Source of the DNA: a phage
Sequence record: NC_100327.1
Length of the DNA stretch: 64,000 bases
Reading direction: 5' to 3' (one strand)
A model generated the notes under the pieces. That model did not search any database. It saw only the letters and a program-made list of their open reading frames with translations, and was not told the origin of the DNA. This document shows, in pieces, positions 128 to 63,288 of the stretch; within the stretch, counting starts at the first letter, position 1; every line of letters starts with the position of its first letter. A program made the translations under genes and the position numbers.

Positions 128-2110
128 TTATTTGGTGTTATTCTTTGCGTCGATCAGTTCACGGTATTCAATCATAGCAGGAGTGTCCCAATATTTCAAG
201 CCCACATGCTTCAAAAGTGGATATTTCTTTTCCAATCTTGCAATATAGGCCTTCCCGCACTTGACTCGGTTGGCGATTAAGATTTTGGCACGATGATTTA
301 GCTCACTGTGCTTCCACGCGGTGTTACCTTCCCACTTGTGGAAATGTGGCCGATAATTTCCAAAATCTTGCATGGGGATAATTTTCCCTAATTGTCTATA
401 CAGGCTGTCATATGAAGTTTCATTTGCTGCGCGAGTCAGTAAGAATTTCCAGGCGTCCTCTTTCAACAAATGTTCCACATTTTTCTCTGTAACATACTGG
501 CAATCAGGATCAGTCCAAAGCAGACGAGATTCTGATACCAGGTACAGATCTTCCCCTTCAGGAATCTGGAGTGCCGCACGCACACGGTCATAATTTTGCT
601 GGTAGATGTTACTTAGCTGTCCCAGCCAACAACTTCCACGTTGGATATCACCCTCATAAGGAATGCAGTGCTTAATCTTCTTGAACTCTGCCTTAGTAAT
701 ACGCTCACGACGGAAGTAACCATCTTTCTCAAGTTTTTTAACCCAATACCCTGGCTCATAGTGAGTTTTTGTTTCACCTTTCTTTACAGGACGGCGAGGG
801 AGCTCTGATAACAATTTGACCGTATCTGCAAAGAACGGGTGGTGTGCCGCTTCTTTAAACTCTTCCATCAGATCCGTGTTACGGCAATAGAAAACGTTGC
901 GTCCGGTGATCTCGCTTAAGTAGTTACACTTATTTCGGTTATATTTGCCGTCTCCGTCGTTAAATACAAGGTATACACCTCGTAAGAACTCCGACTTTCC
1001 GTAACGAGCATAGCCTATGCGGCCTTTATTTAAGCCGCCAGCGAAAATTTCACAATCGCCTAAGTCGCCAAGCCCTGTTTCTTCCCAACGGTTCCACATA
1101 AAGTTTTTGCCGAAGATGTGTCCGAACACTCCACTGTTCTTCATCATCTCACGTGCTTCTGAGGATGTTTTTGCTGTCTCCAATTCCGCAACAACTTCTG
1201 CCCCACGAAGACGTATACCTTCTTTGACAAAGGCCTCCAGGCGATCCTGGAATCCACCATCGTCGTGCCCCTCTATGGTCCATTCGCGCCCAGGGTTAAT
1301 ATTGCAATCCCCGATAGGGATCTCTACACAGATTGCAGGGTAGTCTGTCAATGTTTCCAGAAACTTAGAGCGGTAAGGTTGGTGTCCCATCACCACACGG
1401 CTCTCATCAGAGCTGGTATAACCTTTCAGGATAGTCATTTTCCAACCATCTTTCTCGTAGCGATACTGCGCCTCAACCTTGTCACCTTCCAGCATCTTAC
1501 TGGTCATAGGGTCGGTAACGGTAAACGGAAACTTTGCATAGCGTAGGCATGACGCAATAGCAGTGCGATATTTCAGAACATGCTCTTTCTTAACATGGAA
1601 CTGAACTTTTACCCCGTTGTGCTCTTCAGTCTTTCGCTCGCGGATCTTGGTAACGTTTGGGATACCCTGATCCAAGAACAATAGATATGTGCTTTCAACA
1701 CCATTGTGCACACTGATAACATCGAAAGTGTCCACCATACTGAACGGAGCCTTTGAACCAACACCTTTATTACCTACCAGAGCGTTGCTGTTGCGCTTGG
1801 TTGACTCCCCGAGATTCATGAAAGTGTTGCGGACCATCTCTTCTGACATGCCCAATCCAACGTCCTGCACAAAGAAGTATGGTTCAAGGTCTGTAGGAGA
1901 GTGAATGATGATCGGTACATCACCCCGTCCAGACTCAACATGGGAGTCCACAGCATTGAAGATTGGTTCACGGCAGCTTGCCAGCACCTTATCTTCGTAA
2001 ATCCCTTTAATGATTAGCCCAAAAGTCTCTTTGTTCAGAGAAATTGAGCCCCTGGTGACCTCCATATTTCCGGTTAGTACTGCTTTAGTTTCATTACTGT
2101 TTACAATCAT
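128..2110 (-). CDS. GHKL-superfamily ATPase (Hsp90/MutL/MORC-like ATP-binding fold) with large uncharacterised C-terminal region
   Basis: 660-aa ORF; N-box EPIFNAVDSH, G1 box DVGLGMS, G2 box GNKGVGSKA within first ~130 aa; stop overlaps RBS of downstream gene. Confidence 0.6.
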   Translation of the reverse strand: MIVNSNETKAVLTGNMEVTRGSISLNKETFGLIIKGIYEDKVLASCREPIFNAVDSHVESGRGDVPIIIHSPTDLEPYFFVQDVGLGMSEEMVRNTFMNLGESTKRNSNALVGNKGVGSKAPFSMVDTFDVISVHNGVESTYLLFLDQGIPNVTKIRERKTEEHNGVKVQFHVKKEHVLKYRTAIASCLRYAKFPFTVTDPMTSKMLEGDKVEAQYRYEKDGWKMTILKGYTSSDESRVVMGHQPYRSKFLETLTDYPAICVEIPIGDCNINPGREWTIEGHDDGGFQDRLEAFVKEGIRLRGAEVVAELETAKTSSEAREMMKNSGVFGHIFGKNFMWNRWEETGLGDLGDCEIFAGGLNKGRIGYARYGKSEFLRGVYLVFNDGDGKYNRNKCNYLSEITGRNVFYCRNTDLMEEFKEAAHHPFFADTVKLLSELPRRPVKKGETKTHYEPGYWVKKLEKDGYFRRERITKAEFKKIKHCIPYEGDIQRGSCWLGQLSNIYQQNYDRVRAALQIPEGEDLYLVSESRLLWTDPDCQYVTEKNVEHLLKEDAWKFLLTRAANETSYDSLYRQLGKIIPMQDFGNYRPHFHKWEGNTAWKHSELNHRAKILIANRVKCGKAYIARLEKKYPLLKHVGLKYWDTPAMIEYRELIDAKNNTK

Positions 2111-2607
2111 TTATTGCGCTCCTTGTAGTAGATATGACTCCCGAATTGAGCTGTCCTCTGCATCTTTTTTGCCCATTTCGGTCGTACTTTGGTTGTATGG
2201 TAGTGTGTTGCTCCACCTGTTATGTCCATAGCCATGTATGCAACATGGTTGTTATTATAGACCTTTAGAAGCATCTTTGCAAGACTTTTAGCGTGATCCC
2301 ATGAATCTTTTTCTGTCACCTTAAAAGTTTTGCCGTGGTTTGTCCACGAAAACTGGTTAGGTTGGTAGACAATCTTTCTTATAGTGTCTGGGTATTTGGG
2401 GTGAGATTTCCTGTTTAGTGTGGCAAACCCTGATGCCAGCATACCCATCGTGCCATCCCCTCTAGCCTCCCTGTAGATATTGCATGCCAGAATGTTTTCC
2501 TTAGTATCTGAGGGCTTGCAAGTATGATATACTTTTTGTTTTGGTGCTGCAACAACAGGCAGCGATAAAAGTGCGCTCAAAATAATAGCAAAGATCTTAA
2601 TTTTCAC
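2107..2607 (-). CDS. secreted cell-wall hydrolase, SleB/Hydrolase_2-like (candidate endolysin)
   Basis: 166 aa; N-terminal hydrophobic signal or SAR-like segment MKIKIFAIILSALLSLPVVAA; NIYREARGDG motif typical of SleB-type hydrolases; GTG start preceded by GGAG. Confidence 0.5.
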   Translation of the reverse strand: MKIKIFAIILSALLSLPVVAAPKQKVYHTCKPSDTKENILACNIYREARGDGTMGMLASGFATLNRKSHPKYPDTIRKIVYQPNQFSWTNHGKTFKVTEKDSWDHAKSLAKMLLKVYNNNHVAYMAMDITGGATHYHTTKVRPKWAKKMQRTAQFGSHIYYKERNK

Positions 2608-2616
2608 AATGACTCC

Positions 2617-2644
2617 AAATAGAAAATCCCCGCCGAAGCGGGGG
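2617..2644 (-). terminator. rho-independent terminator (CCCCGC-CGAA-GCGGGG hairpin plus U-run on minus-strand RNA)
   Basis: GC hairpin 2627-2644 followed on minus strand by T-run (plus A-run 2622-2626); sits immediately before RBS of hydrolase gene. Confidence 0.6.
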
Positions 2645-2656
2645 AGGTCTTAGAAA

Positions 2657-3037
2657 TTAATCGTAGTGTGCCAAAATCTCTCCATCGTTGCAAGTTCCCT
2701 CTACAAAGTTATGAAGATTCATGCACTCATCTTGATAGAAGAATTTACCGCTTTTCAGCCGTAGGCCAAACAACTCCGCATCTCCACGATGGCAAGCCTC
2801 TACAAGTTCATAGATTTCATACGGCAACTCTCCGTCGTCATGGAAGAATCCAGCCTTATCGTTGACATAAATGAAGAAATAATCACTGCTATCGCAAGCG
2901 TCCAATATTTTAAACCAGATTTCATCTACATCTTTTTCTCGGATATCGATCACGCAAGTGGAGCTGCATTCGTACTCCTTCTCCGGCTCCTCGGTCAATA
3001 CCACCAGGTAGTTTCCCCGCTTACCTACTTTAGCCAT
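2657..3037 (-). CDS. hypothetical protein
   Basis: ORF 2657-3085 trimmed to ATG at 3037 (MAKVGKRG...) which has AAGGGGGG RBS and avoids overlap with upstream gene. Confidence 0.5.
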   Translation of the reverse strand: MAKVGKRGNYLVVLTEEPEKEYECSSTCVIDIREKDVDEIWFKILDACDSSDYFFIYVNDKAGFFHDDGELPYEIYELVEACHRGDAELFGLRLKSGKFFYQDECMNLHNFVEGTCNDGEILAHYD

Positions 3038-3047
3038 ACAACCCCCC

Positions 3048-4232
3048 TTAAGCTTTAGCCAAAATGGCGCTAAACTCTTCACCAAACTCTTTTACAATCT
3101 TCATCAGGTTTGGGTATGCTTTGATCAGCTGAGCAACAATCTTGTCACGCCCTTTACCGATAAGCAAGGCATTTCCTAAGGCATTAGGTTTCATCATCGC
3201 CATAAAGACTGAGAATACAAAATCTCGGTTCTCGTCCTTGAAGTTTTCCCAAAGGAAATCGAGGAAGTTTGCCACACAGCTGACAAGATCTTCGTCTGAG
3301 ATACTTGCATTTTCCATCATATTACGAATAGCGATACAACCTTCAGATCCAAGAATCCACAAAATGTCTGGCTGCTTAGGACCTACGTATTCTTTGCAGC
3401 CACCTGCCATAATCCGACCGATTTCCGGTAAATTGCGTTTCTTGGTGTGGTATGTCCAGATCTCTACCGCTGCAGTGTGACCAATAGCACCTTGCAGAAG
3501 AACACGGGCCATAGCGTCAGAAATAATACCGCTGTCAAAATCGTGCAAGATGTCAGATGCAGCAACCCAAGATCGTGGTGTGGCAAAAGATGGACAATTA
3601 ATCTCAGCCATAGCCTCATAATTATCAATAGCTGATGGAACTCTTTTCAGATACCCAATTACAGAGGAGTGAACCCCGTTGAGGAATGCGTAGTCCTCAA
3701 TAAACACCTCTGCATTGCTTGTAACCTCTACAATGATAAAACGGTTAGCCAGAGGGGCTTCGAGCGCCGAAAGAACCGCACCATCTGTAGAACGGTTACC
3801 CGCAGCCACAAAAACAGAACCCTTAGGGAATGCATAGGTGCCGCACTTGTGGTCAAGCATAATTTGCATTGCAACCTTTTGCAGGTAGTTATCTGCATGA
3901 GTGAGCTCATCCAGAAAGATAATTCCGCTCCAGTCAGGATCCGCAGGCCAAAATTCTGGAATTGCAAACACTGTACGTGTAGTTCCATCCGCTTCTACAG
4001 GGATAGGTAGCCCAGATAAGTCGGCAGGATCTTTATCTGACAGTCGCACGTCAACAAGGTTGTCATCTCGCTCACCGAACATATTATCAGCGATCTGCTT
4101 CATCACCTGGCTTTTACCCACACCCATTGGTCCCAAAATTAGGACAGATCGGCTATGACGTTGGGCAAACTGAATAATAGCTGGCAACTCACGGACAGTG
4201 ATTTGACCACTTTCGAATACGTTTCTTGACAT
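3048..4232 (-). CDS. MoxR/CobS-like AAA+ ATPase (AAA_5 family)
   Basis: 394 aa; Walker A GPMGVGKS, Walker B IIFLDELTHA, arginine-finger region AAGNRS; size and motifs typical of MoxR-type ATPases. Confidence 0.7.
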   Translation of the reverse strand: MSRNVFESGQITVRELPAIIQFAQRHSRSVLILGPMGVGKSQVMKQIADNMFGERDDNLVDVRLSDKDPADLSGLPIPVEADGTTRTVFAIPEFWPADPDWSGIIFLDELTHADNYLQKVAMQIMLDHKCGTYAFPKGSVFVAAGNRSTDGAVLSALEAPLANRFIIVEVTSNAEVFIEDYAFLNGVHSSVIGYLKRVPSAIDNYEAMAEINCPSFATPRSWVAASDILHDFDSGIISDAMARVLLQGAIGHTAAVEIWTYHTKKRNLPEIGRIMAGGCKEYVGPKQPDILWILGSEGCIAIRNMMENASISDEDLVSCVANFLDFLWENFKDENRDFVFSVFMAMMKPNALGNALLIGKGRDKIVAQLIKAYPNLMKIVKEFGEEFSAILAKA

Positions 4233-9359: not shown

Positions 9360-9623
9360 ATGGCAACAGAGTTAAAATTTGCATCAAACCGTAAAACTAA
9401 GAAGTATCTGTCCTCAGTAGCTCCAGGCACTGTGGTGATGTTTGTTGATGAACTTGGGGATGTGAATACAGCACTTGTTGTAAAATCACATCCTGCAAAC
9501 ATATATGTTGGGGTATTTGACCTGTTCAGAAAGGTGTTTGTAGAACTGCCTCACAGTTTGGTTGTTACAGAAATGGATGCCTGCATAGAAATTCTTGGCG
9601 AAGTTATGGTGGAGGAACAATAA
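9360..9623 (+). CDS. small protein, member 1 of four-gene tandem paralog family
   Basis: 87 aa; GAGGAGG RBS; shares MAT...K.KKK...GTVV...VK...F.L...ILGE pattern with next ORF. Confidence 0.6.
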   Translation: MATELKFASNRKTKKYLSSVAPGTVVMFVDELGDVNTALVVKSHPANIYVGVFDLFRKVFVELPHSLVVTEMDACIEILGEVMVEEQ

Positions 9624-9886
9624 TGGCTACCAGCATTGTATTCAATTCTAAGGTGAAGAACAAAAAGCGTGCAGACAGTTTTCCGTGTGGGACCGTGGTA
9701 AGTTGCGACGGAGACGGCATTCAAAACATAGTTATGATTGTCAAAACAGGAGAACATTGTGTGTGGGGGTTCGATTTAGAAAATAATGAGTTGTACGATC
9801 TGCCGCCAAACATGAAAGTTACAGAGCTTGACACCAAAATTACCATCCTTGGAGAGACAAGCTATTCAAAAGAAGGAGGAGAATAA
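9623..9886 (+). CDS. small protein, member 2 of tandem paralog family
   Basis: 87 aa; start overlaps previous stop; conserved CGTVV and ITILGE positions. Confidence 0.6.
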   Translation: MATSIVFNSKVKNKKRADSFPCGTVVSCDGDGIQNIVMIVKTGEHCVWGFDLENNELYDLPPNMKVTELDTKITILGETSYSKEGGE

Positions 9887-10149
9887 TGACCACAAAAATC
9901 ACTATCGCAGAACCGAAAGCTAACACTCAGCCTATCGAAAAGTTTAAGTGCGGTGAGGTGGTAACATTCACACCAGATAATGAAGATGCTAAGATTTTCG
10001 CAATGGTCACAGCTGAGTGGATGTGTGACAACACCACACAGGTTCTGCGTTTTGACACCTATCTTACCGATGAAATCAGGAACGACAAGATTGTGACTGG
10101 TGTGGATACTGAGATTGTTTTCTACAAGAGCTTTTTAGAGGGTTTCTGA
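9886..10149 (+). CDS. small protein, member 3 of tandem paralog family
   Basis: 87 aa; KCGEVVTF and downstream hydrophobic pattern aligned with members 1-2. Confidence 0.55.
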   Translation: MTTKITIAEPKANTQPIEKFKCGEVVTFTPDNEDAKIFAMVTAEWMCDNTTQVLRFDTYLTDEIRNDKIVTGVDTEIVFYKSFLEGF

Positions 10150-22739: not shown

Positions 22740-23054
22740 TTACCTTTTACTATGCTCTACGAGCATGTGCAAAATCTTTTGTACATCAGCTCGGATACCG
22801 GAGACATCTGTCCTGACATCCTGCTTAAGGTCGTTAATATCGGCCTCTAGCTTGCTTAACCGGGTCTCGATAACGGAATCAAGTTTATCTTTTGTAACCA
22901 TACTGTTTTTCACTAAGATGAGGTCTTTCTCCAGTTCATCCAACCTCTTGGAAATGCCTTTCCATTTGGTGTGCCACTGGTTGAAAGCCCATACACAGAT
23001 CGGGACAACGGTACCCATGCAGATACCGTACAATGCCGCCAAATCCAACTCCAC
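22740..23054 (-). CDS. membrane-anchored coiled-coil protein
   Basis: 104 aa; N-terminal hydrophobic helix then heptad-like charged region. Confidence 0.35.
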   Translation of the reverse strand: MELDLAALYGICMGTVVPICVWAFNQWHTKWKGISKRLDELEKDLILVKNSMVTKDKLDSVIETRLSKLEADINDLKQDVRTDVSGIRADVQKILHMLVEHSKR

Positions 23055-58431: not shown

Positions 58432-59217
58432 TTAGATAAAACGCTTGAACATAGAAGGTGATGAGATTGATGGAATCACACAAGGAAGTGCTACCTCCTC
58501 TTTCTCCAGGAAATTAATCGCAGAAGCTACACAGTCAGCCCAGTCGTCTTTTCTGTTAAATGTTGATCTTTCCCCGTTGAATTTTTCAAGTTCGGTCAGA
58601 AATGCTTCCAGAGTATCAGGATGGAAACTGGATTTTACAATCCTTACCATTCCTTGTTGGGCAAGATTGGCAAAAGGTGAGAACCTTGTCAGTTTAGACT
58701 TGTTGGAAGGCATTGGGTCTTCTTCAACCCTAAACCCTTCGGCGAGCAAGGATCTGGAGGAGGTTAAGAACTCACTCTTACCTGCCTGACCGGGGTCCAC
58801 AGAGAATACGATTATACAATCATCACCATCAAACTGCGCCTGTTTCCTGATGATCACATCTCGTTCACCAGCCTTTTTACAGAACTTGCCTTCCAGACCT
58901 GTGGAATACCTCCCGTCATCCACGTTCTCAGGACAATAATCACCGGACAGGTAATAAAAGCCGTCGCTATCTTTACTTACCTTAACACTGGCGGTAAAGT
59001 CAGGAAATTTATTACCGGAAGTTCTCTCGGTTCCTGCCTTATCCCATGCCCTGCAAGATACTGACCCAAGAGGTACTCTATCGGCATCACGAAGGAAAGA
59101 TCTTTGAAAATAGTTTGCACCCTCAGGCTTTGCAAACCAGTTACCATGGAGAAGCTGAGCTTTTTCCAGCTCTGGTAGACCTTCGAGGAAAGCAAGGTAT
59201 TCTGGGTTGTCTCTCAA
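58432..59217 (-). CDS. terL: terminase large subunit, exon 3 (C-terminal nuclease domain); 5' boundary approximate
   Basis: 261-aa frame with RNaseH-like nuclease motifs; separated from upstream terminase fragment by intron 2. Confidence 0.7.
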   Translation of the reverse strand: MRDNPEYLAFLEGLPELEKAQLLHGNWFAKPEGANYFQRSFLRDADRVPLGSVSCRAWDKAGTERTSGNKFPDFTASVKVSKDSDGFYYLSGDYCPENVDDGRYSTGLEGKFCKKAGERDVIIRKQAQFDGDDCIIVFSVDPGQAGKSEFLTSSRSLLAEGFRVEEDPMPSNKSKLTRFSPFANLAQQGMVRIVKSSFHPDTLEAFLTELEKFNGERSTFNRKDDWADCVASAINFLEKEEVALPCVIPSISSPSMFKRFI

Positions 59218-60211
59218 ACAGACAGGATTATCGAATCCTTATATTCAAAGGTGGTCGCAACACCACCCTCCGCACCATTACGTGCTGCTGCATGTTACCA
59301 TGCAGAGTAGACTATATCACCACCCATCTCAGGGTGCTTCGCTTTTCGAGCGCCATAAGCTTGCGCCCTACTCCCTCTCGGGATAGTCGTTGAACTACAT
59401 TACCAATCGTAATTGTTTGAAATATAGGTGTAAGTCTTACGGTCTTTTATTCCTTTAACAACACTAAAACTTACTCCCCACTTCTTAGCTATTTTATTTA
59501 CACACAAAACCCTATCACTAAGATCCTCGCAGATACCTATTATCTTGTGCTCACTTATCCTATTAGAGGTTGGCACTTTTCTAAAGTTAAACTCTTTAGA
59601 AATATCTGGGTATACTGAGCCATTCTTTATACCACTTACAAGTGGTTGATTGACACCAAACATTTCACAAATGTCTTTTACCCTTGCACCTTGCTCTAAC
59701 AGCCTACATATTTCAAGAGCAGTGGCATCATCTAGGGACCTGTATTTATTGACATAGTCCTTTTTAAGTCCCATTTCATGAGCGTGATGTGTGTTTTCCT
59801 CAGGCGTTGTCCACTCAAGGTTCCATGCGGCGTTATTCAACTTATTACCATCCAGGTGGTTTACTTGAGTTTTCACGCTGGGATTATCATTATCAACAAA
59901 AGTCATAGCGATAACTCTATGGACTAGCACTTGGAACTTTTTCCCGCCCTCGCACAAAGTGACCATAGCATAGCCAGTCTTTTTCTGCACATTAGGATGG
60001 AGGAATTTATTAGAATACAGACTGTAAATTCTGCCATCGTATGTAGCACAATAATGATTGTAGCCTAAAAAGCCTAAATTTCTCATTTCAAACATCTCCC
60101 TACTACAGGTTCGGAAGGGTAATTATAGCTGCTGATTGTCCGTTTAGCAATCGGATTTTCCAGCAATTAACGAAGTTATTCGACGTGCATTTCTGCACGA
60201 AGCCACTATCA
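59218..60211 (-). mobile_element. group I intron 2 in terL, carrying an HNH homing endonuclease ORF; boundaries approximate
   Basis: Minus-strand core elements P-like AATTGCTGGAAA (plus 60153-60170), Q AATCAGCAGC (60128-60137), R GTTCAACGACTATCC (59381-59395), S GATATAGTCTAC (59307-59318). Confidence 0.7.
59400..60095 (-). CDS. HNH homing endonuclease (intron-encoded)
   Basis: 231 aa; HNH motif VNHLDGNKLNNAAWNLEWTTPEEN; ORF sits between Q and R elements of intron 2. Confidence 0.75.
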   Translation of the reverse strand: MFEMRNLGFLGYNHYCATYDGRIYSLYSNKFLHPNVQKKTGYAMVTLCEGGKKFQVLVHRVIAMTFVDNDNPSVKTQVNHLDGNKLNNAAWNLEWTTPEENTHHAHEMGLKKDYVNKYRSLDDATALEICRLLEQGARVKDICEMFGVNQPLVSGIKNGSVYPDISKEFNFRKVPTSNRISEHKIIGICEDLSDRVLCVNKIAKKWGVSFSVVKGIKDRKTYTYISNNYDW

Positions 60212-60499
60212 TTTAATGGTTGCGCCTATAAACGAGAATGACAACGGTCTTGGCTTGATCTCCACACCCAGTCCGTTAACCGTGGTGTATTTCTCTATCA
60301 ACTCTTCTTTAGAGTCTCCCCAGATAAATTCACCGTCGCGTCGGATAAAATATCTTTTCTTACCGCATTTCTCCGGATCTGGATACCCTTCATCGTCCAA
60401 CCACCATCTAACCAGTTTGGCAAGCATGTGTTCTGAATCGGGGTTACAGCTGATAACCATTCTTGATGGATACTTTGACTGAGATCGCAGACGAGACAT
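60209..60499 (-). CDS. terL: terminase large subunit, exon 2 (middle segment); both boundaries approximate
   Basis: 96-aa frame flanked by intron core elements on both sides; frame open upstream of first ATG; stop at 60209 probably intronic. Confidence 0.55.
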   Translation of the reverse strand: MSRLRSQSKYPSRMVISCNPDSEHMLAKLVRWWLDDEGYPDPEKCGKKRYFIRRDGEFIWGDSKEELIEKYTTVNGLGVEIKPRPLSFSFIGATIK

Positions 60500-61415
60500 C
60501 AGGTAGTCTATCTGCTCCCATTCGAACTGTGTCGTTTATGTTCGGGCAAGGTCGCTAGTCTTGCCCCGCCATTTTCAGGCAGCTGCATGTCTCCATGCAG
60601 ACCAGACTATATCTTATGAATGTGCAAATACTCTGCCGCTCTAAGAATAGTTTCCTCATCCTCTTGGAAGAAACCTAAAGCTCTGTTGCATTTATCACAA
60701 AGCAACCCTCTTACAGCACCAGTTTTATGGTCATGATCAACACAAAAGAAATCTCTGTACCCTTGCGTCCTATACTCATCAAGAGATATTCTACAAATGG
60801 CACACTTATGATCTTGATCTGAGAGTAGACGATAGTATTCATCTTTTGTTATGTGAAATTTCTTCTCAATCTGATAAAACTTTTCACACATCTTACACCT
60901 GTTCGTAACCAGATATACTTTACCATAGTCACGTTTTGTGTAAAAACTATCAGCGAGCATACTTTCATGACAAGATTTGCATTCAAAAAGTTCACCTTTC
61001 TTCAGCAAGTCTTGAATAAATAATGCTGCGTCATCTCTCTTAACCATATTTTTGTTTCTACGAGATCCACCATTCCTGTAGTACATATAGCATTCCTTGC
61101 ATGTACCTGAGTATCCATCCTTGCTCTTAGATGATAAAAAGAAATCATCAATAGGTAGAACTCTTTGGCAATCCATACATTTTTTAGTATTACACATTCA
61201 CCCTCCCGTTTCGAATCGCTTGATTCTACGTCTTTCGACTAGTCGTTGAACGTTCATCCTCTCGGATGCTTCGCTGCGGATTATCTAAATTAACACACTG
61301 TTACCATACCTTCGATCTCTCTTCGAAGCCTCTATCATGTTACCATGACAGGTTGGTGGTGTCAATAATAAAGATTTCCCCGCAATTAGGGAGGTTTTAC
61401 GAGAGCTACAAATTA
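60500..61415 (-). mobile_element. group I intron 1 in terL, carrying an Endonuclease VII-like homing endonuclease ORF; boundaries approximate
   Basis: Minus-strand core elements P AATTGCGGGGAAA (plus 61375-61387), Q AATCCGCAGC (61273-61282), R GTTCAACGACTAGTC (61237-61251), S AAGATATAGTC (60605-60615, overlapping ORF stop). Confidence 0.75.
60607..61197 (-). CDS. Endonuclease VII-like (T4 gp49-type) homing endonuclease (intron-encoded)
   Basis: 196 aa; N-terminal CxxC zinc cluster; signature DHDHKTGAVRGLLCDKCN; C-terminal codons coincide with the intron S element. Confidence 0.7.
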   Translation of the reverse strand: MCNTKKCMDCQRVLPIDDFFLSSKSKDGYSGTCKECYMYYRNGGSRRNKNMVKRDDAALFIQDLLKKGELFECKSCHESMLADSFYTKRDYGKVYLVTNRCKMCEKFYQIEKKFHITKDEYYRLLSDQDHKCAICRISLDEYRTQGYRDFFCVDHDHKTGAVRGLLCDKCNRALGFFQEDEETILRAAEYLHIHKI

Positions 61416-61841
61416 ACCCTCATCGAAGCAAACCATGGTGTACTCAAGCCCCTGATGGTTAAGCTTATCTTGTACATACTCCATATGGCAGTATTTTACA
61501 ACAGCTCCCTTTTTGCTTCTATCCCACTTACCAGTGTTCGGATCAAACCGTGGAAAAATGAACTTATGATCCTTCTCTCTGAACTTTGGCTTAATGTTTT
61601 CAGGCAGATCACTATAAATAGCTACTGCTTTAGGCCATAGTCCACCCTCACCTTCCAACTGTGGGGTTGTTCTTCGGAACATAACCACAGAGCTGTGGGG
61701 GTCATCAATAATTTTAAGTGGCATCAACTGCAAGAGGAACGACTTGCCAGACCCTGCGGCACCGCCGATTACCAAAATATCTGCATCGTTTTCTAGGATC
61801 ATCTTCTGCTTTTCAGAACACGGTCCGTAAATCTTAGACAT
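61413..61841 (-). CDS. terL: terminase large subunit, exon 1 (N-terminal ATPase domain); 3' boundary approximate
   Basis: Walker A VIGGAAGSGKS, Walker B-like MVCFDEG at the end, then in-frame TAA followed by intron P element. Confidence 0.75.
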   Translation of the reverse strand: MSKIYGPCSEKQKMILENDADILVIGGAAGSGKSFLLQLMPLKIIDDPHSSVVMFRRTTPQLEGEGGLWPKAVAIYSDLPENIKPKFREKDHKFIFPRFDPNTGKWDRSKKGAVVKYCHMEYVQDKLNHQGLEYTMVCFDEG

Positions 61842-62128
61842 TAACCTCTCTCCTTTGGAAACAGTGTTCTAATATAGTCTTGCAAAATGATCAATTTAGC
61901 TCTATCATTGCTACAAGACAGATTATTATCCCTCATAATGCCAGAATTCACTGCATCTGGCGCACCTTTCTTCAAAGGCATAGCTTTAGCAGGTGGTTTC
62001 ATGGCACCTTCCGGGGGTTTAACAATCAACCTTCCTACATCCGGAGGGTCAATCTTGTATTCTCTCTCAACGCTGGTTGCACACCCACATAATAACAAGC
62101 ACACAATAAACAGTGTAGCAACTCTCAT
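61841..62128 (-). CDS. o-spanin (outer-membrane lipoprotein, Rz1-like)
   Basis: 95 aa; lipobox LLCGC after signal peptide; proline-rich mature region; immediately downstream of i-spanin. Confidence 0.55.
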   Translation of the reverse strand: MRVATLFIVCLLLCGCATSVEREYKIDPPDVGRLIVKPPEGAMKPPAKAMPLKKGAPDAVNSGIMRDNNLSCSNDRAKLIILQDYIRTLFPKERG

Positions 62129-62523
62129 CTACCCTCCTGATTAATACTCTCATTATAAATATCTATAAGCTGATCAGGGAGTGTTGACTTCTTACCCTCA
62201 GGTGACTGGAGGTAAATAATCTGCTTTTCTTTACCTGCCTTCTCAGCCATATTTAATTTATCCTGTAGATCAGAAAGGGATTTTTCAAGGTTTTTAACCT
62301 CCTCTGCGTGGCCCATTTTAATTTTGTCGGCCTGCTTTTGTTGCTGATCAAGGATCCGTTCCCACTTTAACTCTGTTGCTGACACACCTTCTTGGTAGGC
62401 ATCATTAAGCTTAGAGTTAAACCAATACACGGCCCCAAGATAAGCTGTACCTATCGCAGCTGCAAAAACTAAACCTTTTATGATCCCTCTATACCTGCTC
62501 AGCCATGTTAAAACTGAAATCAT
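62125..62523 (-). CDS. i-spanin (inner-membrane, Rz-like)
   Basis: 132 aa; N-terminal transmembrane helix IIKGLVFAAAIGTAYLGAVYWF then coiled-coil periplasmic domain; 4-nt overlap with o-spanin. Confidence 0.55.
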   Translation of the reverse strand: MISVLTWLSRYRGIIKGLVFAAAIGTAYLGAVYWFNSKLNDAYQEGVSATELKWERILDQQQKQADKIKMGHAEEVKNLEKSLSDLQDKLNMAEKAGKEKQIIYLQSPEGKKSTLPDQLIDIYNESINQEGR

Positions 62524-63184: not shown

Positions 63185-63191
63185 AAAAAGG

Positions 63192-63288
63192 TGCTAGGTG
63201 ATGGAATCGAACCACCTATGTATTCAACGACTACCTCGTCTATTTTCAGGATTAAAAATCCTCGCCCTTGCCAAAGGGCTTACCTAGC
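63192..63288 (-). tRNA. atypical tRNA-like element (97 nt; possible UUU anticodon, oversized variable region); may be a pseudo-tRNA
   Basis: Perfect 7-bp acceptor GCUAGGU/ACCUAGC, D-arm GCCC-UUUGGCAA-GGGC, canonical T-arm GGUGG-UUCGAUU-CCAUC; ~30 nt between anticodon-like hairpin and T-arm; CCA not fully encoded. Confidence 0.35.

What the first reader, a model, noticed from the sequence alone, without database searches (positions are those of the whole stretch)
2107..2644. Secreted SleB-like hydrolase sits behind a terminator and far from the spanins; no holin evident
The only recognisable cell-wall hydrolase has a cleavable-looking signal or SAR-like N-terminus. It lies in the early region about 59 kb from the spanin pair (61841-62523), and no convincing holin accompanies either. 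A rho-independent terminator ends only 10-15 nt before its RBS, so its expression may depend on terminator read-through or antitermination. That would be an unusual lysis-timing arrangement.
Basis: partly seen in the sequence, partly recalled or inferred. Interest (0 to 1): 0.45.

Follow-up and report, generated by a model that had tools for sequence, protein, structure and literature searches.

The report
Secreted accessory wall hydrolase of rV5-like phage
The gene is the already-annotated SleB-type, signal-peptide-bearing cell-wall hydrolase (gp2) of rV5-like coliphages, sitting behind a published terminator; it is not the phage's only lysin, because a classic lambda-type endolysin lies just outside the window, so the arrangement is ordinary for this phage group.

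Summary
The sequence observation is correct. Window 2107-2607 (-) encodes a 166-aa Hydrolase_2/SleB-fold enzyme with a Sec signal peptide. A GC hairpin plus U-tract (2617-2643) abuts its GGAG/GTG start. The spanin pair lies 59 kb away, and no holin-like gene is in the window.

The window is an rV5-like Vequintavirus, 100% identical to phage nimi over the first 8 kb. The gene is rV5 gp2. The terminator is rV5 t003, published in 2013. The signal peptide and the dispersed lysis genes were described for the subfamily in 2020.

These phages carry a cytoplasmic lambda-R-type endolysin (rV5 gp89, nimi_3, LysECP26, shown lytic in vitro) outside the window. They also carry a separate 2-TMD holin candidate (gp129).

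Most likely gp2 is an accessory periplasmic lytic transglycosylase kept at low dose. The hairpin immediately before the ribosome-binding site and a GTG/TTG start codon recur across several genera, with different stem sequences. Its stop codon overlaps the rIIA start. In sister genera a small 2-TMD protein sits between it and rIIA.

Its biological role is untested. Already known; low interest.

The parts
2107..2607 (-). SleB-like (Hydrolase_2) cell-wall hydrolase gene, 166 aa, GTG start; orthologue of rV5 gp2 / nimi_131
   Evidence: ORF. Pfam PF07486 E=2e-19. PDB SleB hits. AF2 model plus Foldseek to 4f55/4fet. PHROG 938. Annotated as cell wall hydrolase in nimi and rV5. Among 4 Vequintavirus genomes I counted 11 synonymous and 1 conservative change by hand on the alignment.
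2548..2607 (-). Codons 1-20: Sec-type signal peptide MKIKIFAIILSALLSLPVVA, predicted cleavage A20|A21
   Evidence: Sequence. KD hydrophobicity 2.34 over residues 3-21. pLDDT is about 50 for residues 1-20. Equivalent signal peptides ending in a small residue at -1 (VLA|K, SFA|K, SHA|T, AQA|E) occur in seven of the eight homologues compared. The cleavage itself is inferred.
2467..2469 (-). Codon GAG for Glu47 in the YREARGDG motif, the predicted catalytic glutamate
   Evidence: Aligns with the Glu of SleB YGESRGEP in 4f55/4fet. Invariant in 9 phage homologues and in 10 database homologues. That this Glu is catalytic in Bacillus SleB is from my own knowledge.
2613..2616 (-). Shine-Dalgarno GGAG, 5 nt before the GTG start
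   Evidence: Read directly from the sequence.
2617..2643 (-). Intrinsic terminator (rV5 t003): CCCCGC-UUCG-GCGGGG stem-loop plus an interrupted U-tract AUUUUCUAUUU
   Evidence: Published as t003, dG -16 kcal/mol. Annotated by ARNold in phage Gotham. A hairpin holds the same position, with different stem sequences, in Seuna-, Mydo-, Avuna-, Certre- and Pakpunavirus. The 66-nt intergenic RNA folds at -18.7 kcal/mol, z=-2.1.
2657..3037 (-). Upstream gene (rV5 gp3 orthologue, 126 aa, acidic, no signal peptide); its transcript would end at the terminator
   Evidence: phrog_12370, unknown function. It has no homologue next to SleB in other genera.
128..2110 (-). rIIA gene; its ATG overlaps the hydrolase TGA (ATGA) and it has its own AAGGAG SD inside the hydrolase 3' end; rIIB follows beyond the window start
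   Evidence: rIIA/rIIB of the rV5-like phage EdH4 are functional against RexAB.
2254..2282 (-). Promoter-like TTGCAA-N17-TATAAT inside the hydrolase gene, about 145 nt before the rIIA ATG (function unproven)
   Evidence: Promoter-like hits in sister genera lie at non-orthologous positions, so this could be a chance match or a by-product of coding constraint.
61841..62128 (-). o-spanin (lipoprotein, lipobox LLLCGC)
62125..62523 (-). i-spanin (N-terminal TMD plus coiled coil), next to the terminase gene

Best explanation
The gene is the rV5 gp2 orthologue: a small SleB/CwlJ-family (Hydrolase_2) lytic-transglycosylase-type peptidoglycan hydrolase.

How it probably works:
- It is made as a precursor with a classic Sec signal peptide.
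- It is exported, cleaved after Ala20 and released into the periplasm as a basic enzyme of about 146 aa. Glu47 is the catalytic residue, and a Cys30/Cys42 pair may form a disulfide.
- It is not the phage's main endolysin. That role belongs to the cytoplasmic lambda-R-type lysin encoded outside the window, which works with an unidentified holin (candidate gp129) and the spanins next to the terminase.
- gp2 is the first gene of a gp2-rIIA-rIIB block in the leftward early/replication unit.
- Its dose is kept low in two ways. Transcripts from upstream promoters must read through a leaky intrinsic terminator that abuts its RBS. Translation then starts at a weak GTG codon (TTG in most other genera).
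- At this low dose the enzyme nicks or remodels the sacculus from the periplasmic side and so assists host lysis, without causing premature lysis.

Shown here: family, fold, conserved catalytic Glu, signal-peptide features, the hairpin, the non-ATG start and the gene order.

Inferred: export and cleavage, the disulfide, partial termination, low dose, and the contribution to lysis.
For: Identity:
- The first 8 kb of the window is 100% identical to phage nimi and 97-99% identical to other Vequintavirus genomes.
- The gene is annotated as cell wall hydrolase or SleB in nimi and rV5.

Family and fold:
- Pfam Hydrolase_2 match.
- Sequence match to SleB 4f55/4fet.
- An AF2 model that matches only SleB catalytic domains in the PDB.
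- Invariant Glu47, plus Arg49, Asn65, Arg66, Gln85, Ser87 and others.

Export:
- Seven of the eight homologues compared keep an n-h-c signal peptide ending in a small residue at -1, although the sequences diverge; the Pakpunavirus homologue has an uncharged hydrophobic N-terminus instead.
- The protein is not flagged as MS-detected in rV5 virions.
- The CB7 homologue has a predicted signal peptide and was toxic when expressed in E. coli.

Not the main endolysin:
- nimi_3 matches lambda lysozyme 1am7 at E=3e-49.
- rV5 gp89 was called the 'obvious lysin'.
- LysECP26 from an rV5-like phage was purified and lytic.
- LL12 gp90 is the annotated endolysin.
- The second lysin differs between genera: lambda-R type here, the modular gp146 in PVP-SE1 (abstract), and a T5-type peptidase in CB7. 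SleB is present in all genera.

Dose limitation:
- Terminator t003 lies directly before the RBS.
- A hairpin with a U-rich tail holds the same position, with different stems, in five Vequintavirinae genera and in Pakpunavirus.
- The start codon is GTG or TTG in 9 of 12 lineages examined. Only 9 of 86 annotated nimi genes start with a non-ATG codon, and only 1 of 86 with TTG.
- No promoter fits between terminator and gene, and rV5 has no predicted promoter until P231.
- The downstream rII genes are nevertheless expressed and functional in EdH4, so transcription must pass the hairpin or start inside the gene.
Against: - No expression, export, activity or knock-out data exist for this protein in any rV5-like phage. 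The 'toxic on expression' report is 'data not shown' and concerns a homologue about 47% identical in a different genus.
- A muralytic enzyme secreted from early times should be dangerous to the phage. Low dose is my inference, not a measurement.
- The U-tract is interrupted and starts with A. In one divergent metagenomic relative (L018) the hairpin has no U-tract at all. The element may therefore be mainly an RNA-stability or processing hairpin.
- In phi92-like and phAPEC8-like phages the gene has its own sigma70-like promoter after the hairpin. In T5-like phages there is no hairpin. The attenuator design is therefore not universal.
- The assignment to 'early' rests only on gene orientation and neighbours.
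- Nothing shows that the enzyme contributes to lysis rather than to some other periplasmic function.
Confidence: 0.55

Rival explanations
1. One reading: gp2 is the phage's effective endolysin. It is exported without a holin through Sec. Lysis timing is set by read-through or antitermination at the upstream terminator.
For: - It is the only muralytic gene in the window.
- It is the only muralytic gene conserved in every Vequintavirinae genus.
- PHROG 938 and several GenBank records call homologues 'endolysin'.
- No holin has been positively identified in rV5-like phages.
Against: - A canonical lambda-R-type endolysin is present in the genus, and a family member is experimentally lytic.
- gp2 sits among early/replication genes upstream of rIIA-rIIB, not among late genes.
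- No antiterminator is known in these phages. The 'anti-termination protein' label in PMBT16 falls on the Srd-like anti-sigma gene.
- Spanins and a 2-TMD holin candidate exist elsewhere in the genome.
Confidence: 0.1
2. gp2 is a SAR (signal-arrest-release) endolysin. It is tethered to the inner membrane by an uncleaved N-terminal domain and released when a pinholin or other event collapses the membrane potential.
For: - It has a hydrophobic N-terminus.
- In sister genera (Mydo-, Seuna- and Certrevirus, and metagenomic locus L018) the next gene encodes a small 2-TMD protein that resembles a pinholin or class II holin.
- The Pakpunavirus homologue has an uncharged, anchor-like N-terminus.
Against: - The h-region IFAIILSALLSLPVV has no Gly, 10 of 17 residues are strongly hydrophobic, and it is only about 15 residues long. 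A helix-breaking Pro and a VVA|A cleavage motif follow it.
- Seven of the eight homologues compared keep a signal-peptidase-type cleavage motif.
- From my own knowledge, SAR domains such as those of P1 Lyz and phage 21 R are rich in Gly/Ala/Ser and lack a signal-peptidase site.
- No 2-TMD partner is adjacent in Vequintavirus.
Confidence: 0.05
3. gp2 has a periplasmic role unrelated to final lysis. Possibilities are sacculus remodelling to allow cell enlargement, damage to envelope-spanning structures or exclusion of superinfecting phages, or production of anhydro-muropeptide signals. It is co-expressed with the rII membrane-integrity proteins.
For: - It lies in the early/replication unit and overlaps rIIA at ATGA.
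- It co-exists with a separate canonical endolysin in several unrelated large virulent phage groups: Vequintavirinae, T5-like Demerecviridae and Stephanstirmvirinae.
- The SleB-(2-TMD)-rIIA-rIIB order is conserved.
- Design features point to low expression.
Against: There is no direct evidence for any of these roles. Toxicity of the CB7 homologue fits a plain lytic activity equally well. The SleB/rII linkage is absent in Certrevirus, T5-like and phi92-like phages.
Confidence: 0.25
4. The hairpin is not a working terminator or attenuator for gp2. It only stabilises the 3' end of the upstream mRNA or the 5' end of a processed gp2-rII mRNA, and gp2 is expressed at ordinary levels.
For: - The U-tract is interrupted and begins with A.
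- L018 has the hairpin without a U-tract.
- Essential replication genes downstream have no predicted promoter of their own before P231, so most transcription may pass the hairpin.
- The intergenic fold is only modestly better than shuffles, z=-2.1.
Against: - It was predicted as a terminator independently by ARNold/MFOLD in rV5 (dG -16) and in Gotham.
- The stem has 6 GC pairs and a UUCG loop.
- A U-rich tail is retained in six of the seven phage lineages examined that carry a hairpin abutting the RBS; the divergent metagenomic locus L018 has none.
- It co-occurs with weak start codons.
Confidence: 0.2

Closest known systems
Escherichia phage rV5 gp2 'SleB / cell wall hydrolase' (ABI79074.1) with terminator t003 (Kropinski et al. 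2013, PMC3606486)
   Same: It is the same gene: 166 aa, about 99% identical, with the same neighbours (gp3 upstream, rIIA downstream with an overlapping stop/start). The terminator sequence CCCCGCTTCGGCGGGGATTTTCTATTT is identical.
   Different: Nothing of substance. The paper gave no function and did not discuss the signal peptide or the link between terminator and gene.
CB7_83, the SleB-like hydrolase of Pectobacterium phage CB7 (Certrevirus; Buttimer et al. 2020, PMC7344957)
   Same: It is the orthologue within Vequintavirinae. It has a predicted signal peptide, co-exists with a second endolysin, and lies far from the spanins next to the terminase. It was reported toxic in E. coli.
   Different: The Certrevirus representative examined here (POP17) is about 47% identical. 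In CB7 the gene is followed by an overlapping 2-TMD candidate class II holin, and CB7 has no rIIA/rIIB. Here rIIA follows directly and no small membrane protein is present.
Bacillus SleB spore-cortex lytic transglycosylase, catalytic domain (PDB 4F55, 4FET)
   Same: Same Pfam family and fold, and the catalytic-Glu motif Y-x-E-[AS]-R-G is conserved.
   Different: Identity is about 21-24%. The phage protein lacks the N-terminal PG-binding domain of Bacillus SleB. The substrate of Bacillus SleB, muramic-delta-lactam cortex (my own knowledge), does not exist in E. coli. The phage protein has a Sec signal peptide for the Gram-negative periplasm.
Signal-peptide (secreted) endolysins such as Lys44 of Oenococcus phage fOg44, and SAR endolysins such as P1 Lyz and phage 21 R (my own knowledge)
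   Same: All are muralytic phage enzymes that reach the wall through the host Sec system rather than through a holin hole.
   Different: Those enzymes are the phage's main lysin and are expressed late. gp2 co-exists with a canonical cytoplasmic endolysin and sits in an early unit. Its N-terminus is of the cleavable type (as in Lys44), not the SAR type.
Dispersed lysis genes of phage T4 (e, t, rI, rIII, pseT.3/pseT.2 spanins, rIIA/rIIB) (my own knowledge)
   Same: In both, the endolysin, holin, spanins and rII genes are scattered over a large virulent myovirus genome. In both, delayed-early genes are reached by read-through of early transcripts.
   Different: T4 has no secreted SleB-type hydrolase next to rIIA.

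Membership tests
SleB/CwlJ cell-wall hydrolase family (Pfam PF07486 Hydrolase_2) | Sequence matches the family HMM above the curated threshold | tested here: met
   70.4 bits against a gathering score of 27, E=2e-19, covering profile positions 2-100 of 100.
SleB/CwlJ cell-wall hydrolase family (Pfam PF07486 Hydrolase_2) | SleB catalytic-domain fold | tested here: met
   AF2 model with pLDDT 88 and pTM 0.80. The only significant PDB matches are 4f55 and 4fet, at TM 0.72-0.79 normalised to the target and rmsd 2.7 A for 4fet.
SleB/CwlJ cell-wall hydrolase family (Pfam PF07486 Hydrolase_2) | Conserved catalytic glutamate | tested here: met
   Glu47 in YREARGDG aligns with the Glu of YGESRGEP in 4f55/4fet and is invariant in two alignments. 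Its catalytic role in SleB is from my own knowledge.
SleB/CwlJ cell-wall hydrolase family (Pfam PF07486 Hydrolase_2) | Lytic transglycosylase activity on peptidoglycan | not testable with these tools
   Needs purified protein and muropeptide analysis (1,6-anhydroMurNAc products).
Bacillus-type SleB germination enzyme (full-length architecture) | N-terminal peptidoglycan-binding domain preceding the catalytic domain | tested here: not met
   Only 166 aa. The single Pfam hit is Hydrolase_2 at residues 51-161. Residues 1-20 are a signal peptide and residues 21-37 a short linker.
Canonical holin-dependent endolysin | Cytoplasmic accumulation (no export signal) | tested here: not met
   An N-terminal n-h-c signal peptide with a VVA|A site is present, and seven of the eight homologues compared have an equivalent one.
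Canonical holin-dependent endolysin | Placement in a lysis cassette or late unit, next to a holin | tested here: not met
   The neighbours are gp3 and rIIA in the leftward early/replication unit. No small 2-3-TMD ORF occurs anywhere in the window.
SAR endolysin | Weakly hydrophobic N-terminal TMD rich in Gly/Ala/Ser, without a signal-peptidase site | tested here: not met
   The h-region has 0 Gly and 6 of 17 Ala/Ser residues; 10 of 17 are Leu/Ile/Val/Phe. A Pro and a VVA|A motif follow. A signal-peptidase-type cleavage motif is kept in seven of the eight homologues compared. The criteria themselves are from my own knowledge.
SAR endolysin | Release from the membrane and activation on depolarisation | not testable with these tools
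   Needs fractionation with and without an energy poison.
Secreted (signal-peptide) endolysin | Cleavable Sec signal peptide on a muralytic enzyme | tested here: met
   Sequence features only. SignalP was not available and cleavage is not demonstrated.
Secreted (signal-peptide) endolysin | Being the enzyme responsible for host lysis | tested here: inconclusive
   A separate, experimentally lytic lambda-R-type endolysin exists in the genus. No genetics exist for gp2.
Rho-independent (intrinsic) terminator | GC-rich hairpin immediately followed by a U-tract | tested here: met
   Six GC pairs, a UUCG loop, and a tail AUUUUCUAUUU with 8 U in 11 nt. Published as t003 with dG -16.
Rho-independent (intrinsic) terminator | Conservation of the structure, rather than the sequence, at the same position | tested here: met
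   Different stems (CCCCGC, AGCCCC, AGGCTCAG, AGCCCGCC) and different loops lie directly before the SleB RBS in 6 genera. One divergent relative lacks the U-tract.
Rho-independent (intrinsic) terminator | Termination in vivo or in vitro, and its efficiency | not testable with these tools
   No transcriptome of a Vequintavirinae phage was found.

The most novel reading that the evidence does not exclude
SleB, a small 2-TMD protein, rIIA and rIIB may form an ancestral accessory lysis-control module of Vequintavirinae. In this reading, a Sec-secreted transglycosylase is kept harmless by very low dose (attenuator hairpin plus GTG/TTG start) and by an energised membrane. The rII proteins guard that energised state. 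The module would give holin-independent or backup lysis, or early sacculus remodelling. The rV5 genus would have lost the membrane partner and would run the enzyme alone, translationally abutted to rIIA.
Probability: 0.2. Interest if true: 0.5.

Novelty: already known. Interest (0 to 1): 0.22.

Why it matters
For the scan, this is a cautionary case. The 'only hydrolase, no holin, odd timing' reading came from seeing 64 kb of a genome of about 137 kb, with the canonical endolysin roughly 10 kb beyond the window's end.

A small open question remains. Several unrelated groups of large virulent phages of Gram-negative hosts (rV5-like, PVP-SE1-like, phi92-like, T5-like) keep a secreted SleB-type hydrolase in addition to a conventional endolysin, and nobody has tested why. 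In Pakpunavirus, which also carries it, I did not check for a second endolysin.

The conserved hairpin before the RBS and the rare TTG/GTG start suggest that its dose matters. If so, these are simple handles for experiments and for engineering lysis timing in therapeutic rV5-like phages.

Tried and rejected
1. A second lysin inside the window. tblastn with the nimi lambda-R-type lysin and its neighbouring 68-aa membrane protein found nothing. Pfam on ten large tail/baseplate ORFs found no hydrolase domain.

2. A holin in the window. The hydrophobicity scan of 78 ORFs picked out only the SleB signal peptide, the two spanins and a 104-aa single-TMD coiled-coil protein among the tail-fibre genes. 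No small membrane ORF is embedded at the SleB/rIIA junction.

3. A conserved gp3-SleB two-gene module, tested because rV5 gp3 resembles T5.083. gp3 has no homologue next to SleB in eight other loci. Rejected.

4. A disrupted SleB gene in phage PMBT16, which would have argued for dispensability. The DNA is intact, and the split annotation comes from missing the GTG start. Rejected.

5. An 'anti-termination protein' annotated near the locus in PMBT16. The label falls on the Srd-like anti-sigma gene 11. It is not evidence for antitermination.

6. Sequestration of the SD and start codon by flanking pairing in the read-through RNA. The fold is only weakly better than shuffles (z=-2.1), and the flanks are not conserved in other genera. 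Not pursued.

7. An internal promoter for rIIA inside the hydrolase gene. A 10/12 match exists. Matches in sister genera are at other positions, and some overlap conserved codons (TGG ACA for the W-T of the SWT motif). Left as unproven.

8. Transcriptome or functional data for Vequintavirinae gp2. Literature searches found none. CRISPRi-ART has been applied to EdH4, but only to the capsid and rII genes.

9. Rfam found nothing in the intergenic region; the only hits in the window are tRNAs.

Full report
**What is there.** The minus strand of window 2107-2607 carries a 166-codon ORF starting with GTG. Its product matches Pfam Hydrolase_2 (PF07486) at 70 bits against a cutoff of 27. It also matches the catalytic domains of Bacillus SleB (4f55, 4fet) by sequence.

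An AlphaFold2 model built on ten homologues (pLDDT 88) matches only those two SleB structures in the PDB, at TM 0.72-0.79 normalised to the target. Glu47, in the motif YREARGDG, aligns with the Glu of the SleB motif YGESRGEP. It is invariant in two independent alignments.

Residues 1-20, MKIKIFAIILSALLSLPVVA, have the charged start, hydrophobic core, helix-breaking Pro and small -3/-1 residues of a Sec signal peptide. The model has low confidence there.

Directly upstream on the same strand lie four elements in order:
- a hairpin CCCCGC-UUCG-GCGGGG at 2643-2628;
- a tail AUUUUCUAUUU at 2627-2617;
- GGAG at 2616-2613;
- the GTG start at 2607.

The stop codon of the hydrolase overlaps the ATG of rIIA (ATGA at 2107-2110). 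rIIA has its own AAGGAG ribosome-binding site.

**Where the window comes from.** The first 8 kb is 100% identical to Escherichia phage nimi and 97-99% identical to more than a hundred other Vequintavirus (rV5-like) genomes. The gene is nimi_131, which is rV5 gene 2, annotated 'cell wall hydrolase / SleB'.

The terminator is listed in the 2013 rV5 paper as t003, with the identical sequence and dG -16 kcal/mol. It is also annotated in phage Gotham.

The rV5 paper places genes 10-1-238-164 in one leftward transcription unit. This unit holds the replication genes. Between t003 and the t232/P231 region the paper predicts no promoter.

The window covers less than half of a genome of about 137 kb. 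About 10 kb beyond its far end, nimi encodes a 162-aa 'lysin', nimi_3. This protein matches phage lambda lysozyme 1am7 at E=3e-49 and has no signal peptide.

The rV5 paper calls the orthologue gp89 the 'obvious lysin'. It proposes gp129, a 78-aa protein with two TMDs and a charged C-terminus, as the holin. LysECP26 from an rV5-like phage is 98% identical to the rV5 endolysin and was purified and shown to lyse Gram-negative cells. The LL12 announcement lists an endolysin (gp90) and spanins (gp65/66) and states that the holin could not be identified.

tblastn confirms that the lambda-type lysin is absent from the window. It is present in about 90 Vequintavirus records at 80% identity or more, with a more divergent allele in others.

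So the phage has a conventional cytoplasmic endolysin. The wide scatter of its lysis genes has been described for rV5, LL12 and CB7. From my own knowledge, it is also the classic T4 arrangement.

**What the hydrolase is likely to be.** tblastn finds SleB-like genes in 1,334 phage records. These include all Vequintavirinae genera, the phi92-like and phAPEC8-like Stephanstirmvirinae, T5-like Demerecviridae and Pakpunavirus.

I compared eight representatives plus metagenomic relatives. Three points emerged.

- *Export signal.* All but the Pakpunavirus homologue have an N-terminal signal peptide ending in a small residue at -1 (VLA|K, SFA|K, SHA|T, AQA|E), although the peptide sequences differ. 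Two cysteines of the mature N-terminus (Cys30, Cys42) are kept in Vequintavirinae and Stephanstirmvirinae. Both features fit a cleaved, soluble periplasmic enzyme.
- *Not SAR-like.* The h-region has no glycine and is dominated by Leu/Ile/Val/Phe. That does not resemble a SAR domain.
- *Not a virion protein.* rV5 gp2 carries no 'MS evidence' tag in the virion proteome table.

The CB7 paper had already noted several of these points: the orthologue has a signal peptide, it is conserved in every genus of the subfamily, it was toxic when expressed in E. coli (data not shown), and it co-exists with another endolysin.

The second endolysin differs between genera. It is lambda-R type here, the modular gp146 in PVP-SE1 (abstract of PMC3352856), and a T5-type peptidase in CB7. 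The SleB-type gene is the constant one. That argues for a role of its own rather than simple redundancy.

**Expression design.** A GC-rich hairpin with a U-rich tail sits immediately before the SleB ribosome-binding site in six genera:

| Genus | Stem-loop | Tail |
|---|---|---|
| Vequintavirus | CCCCGC...GCGGGG | ATTTTCTATTT |
| Seunavirus | AGCCCC...GGGGCT, loops TTTCTT or TACCCT | TTTTAATTT |
| Mydovirus | AGCCCC...GGGGCT, loop GCAAT | TTTTAATTT |
| Avunavirus | AAGCCCC...GGGGCTT | ATTTGTCT |
| Certrevirus | AGGCTCAG...CTGGGCCT | TTCTTATTT |
| Pakpunavirus | AGCCCGCC...GGCGGGCT | TCTTTGTCT |

The stems and loops differ while the position is kept, which points to selection on the structure.

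The start codon is GTG here. It is TTG in Seuna-, Mydo-, Avuna-, Justusliebig- and Phapecoctavirus and in the metagenomic locus L018. Among 86 annotated nimi genes only nine start with a non-ATG codon, and only one with TTG.

No sigma70-like promoter fits between the hairpin and the gene. Together these features suggest that the enzyme is deliberately made in small amounts, by read-through of a leaky terminator and inefficient initiation.

There are caveats.
- The U-tract is interrupted.
- A divergent relative (L018) keeps the hairpin without a U-tract.
- phi92-like and phAPEC8-like phages place a TTGCAA-N17-TA(C/T)A(A/C)T promoter after the hairpin.
- T5-like phages have no hairpin.
- The downstream rIIA/rIIB genes are demonstrably functional in the rV5-like phage EdH4. 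Transcription must therefore pass the hairpin, or start inside the hydrolase gene, where a 10/12 promoter match lies at 2282-2254.
- I found no transcriptome for any member of the subfamily.

**Gene order.** In Mydovirus, Seunavirus, Certrevirus and the metagenomic contig, SleB is followed by a small protein of 51-76 aa with two hydrophobic segments. This gene is often unannotated. The CB7 authors proposed it as a class II holin. rIIA and rIIB follow it, except in Certrevirus, which lacks them.

In Vequintavirus and Avunavirus this small gene is absent and rIIA follows at once. The ancestral block may therefore have been hydrolase, small membrane protein, rIIA, rIIB. Whether this reflects a functional module is unknown.

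**Verdict.** The feature is real, but it is the published gp2/t003 of rV5-like phages. The claim of an unusual lysis-timing arrangement rests on not seeing the canonical endolysin outside the window.

My best reading is an accessory, Sec-exported, dose-limited lytic transglycosylase that helps to weaken or remodel the sacculus. Family, fold, signal features, hairpin and gene order are shown. Export, attenuation and function are inferred.

A non-lytic periplasmic role is a serious rival. Main-endolysin and SAR readings are unlikely.

Interest is low. The one open point worth an experiment is why so many large virulent phages keep this second, secreted hydrolase under apparently tight dosage control.

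Noticed in passing
window 58432-61841 (-): The large terminase gene is split into three coding pieces (61413-61841, 60209-60499, 58432-59217) by two insertions. Each insertion carries an endonuclease-like ORF (60607-61197 and 59400-60095). Phage nimi has an uninterrupted 1548-bp terL, which shifts spanin coordinates by 1149 bp relative to nimi. rV5 and LL12 are reported to have terminase introns. Rfam gave no group I intron hit at gathering threshold.
   Followed up: partly
window 22740-23054 (-): A 104-aa protein with one N-terminal TMD and a long coiled coil (phrog_5345, unknown function) lies among the tail-fibre genes and is annotated 'tail fiber protein' in nimi. Its architecture resembles an i-spanin or a holin/antiholin-type membrane protein.
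   Followed up: partly
L006 3452-3607; L005 about 3465-3626; L009 3423-3611; L018 3583-3813: A small protein with two hydrophobic segments (51-76 aa; phrog_24442 or phrog_10205) lies between SleB and rIIA in Mydo- and Seunavirus and in a metagenomic relative, and directly after SleB in Certrevirus, which lacks rIIA. It is unannotated in many GenBank records. In PVP-SE1 the annotated gene 244 appears to be in a different frame from the conserved membrane ORF.
   Followed up: partly
window 63190-63288 (-): ARAGORN calls an odd 99-nt tRNA with a four-base anticodon (atcc) inside the seven-tRNA cluster. Rfam scores it weakly as a tRNA (35.5 bits). nimi annotates it as 'tRNA-OTHER'.
   Followed up: no
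window 9360-10149 (+): Three consecutive 87-codon ORFs of identical length (9360-9623, 9623-9886, 9886-10149) look like tandem paralogues. Two of them share VOG5597 in nimi.
   Followed up: no
GenBank MG0656xx 'Campylobacter phage' records (e.g. MG065635.1, MG065662.1): Sixteen to twenty records labelled Campylobacter jejuni phages are 98-99.6% identical to rV5-like coliphage DNA across the window. This suggests mislabelled or contaminating coliphages.
   Followed up: no
L013 (PMBT16) 2107-2555; other Pharokka/PHANOTATE-style records: The hydrolase gene is mis-annotated as two short ORFs because the GTG start is missed, although the DNA is intact. The same record labels the Srd-like anti-sigma gene 'anti-termination protein'.
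   Followed up: yes
nimi MN850626.1 1875-2363 and homologues (outside the window): The lambda-R-type endolysin is much more variable within Vequintavirus (alleles at about 100%, 88% and 51% identity) than the SleB-type hydrolase, which is at least 95% identical in 115 records. In nimi an HNH endonuclease gene overlaps its 3' end.
   Followed up: partly
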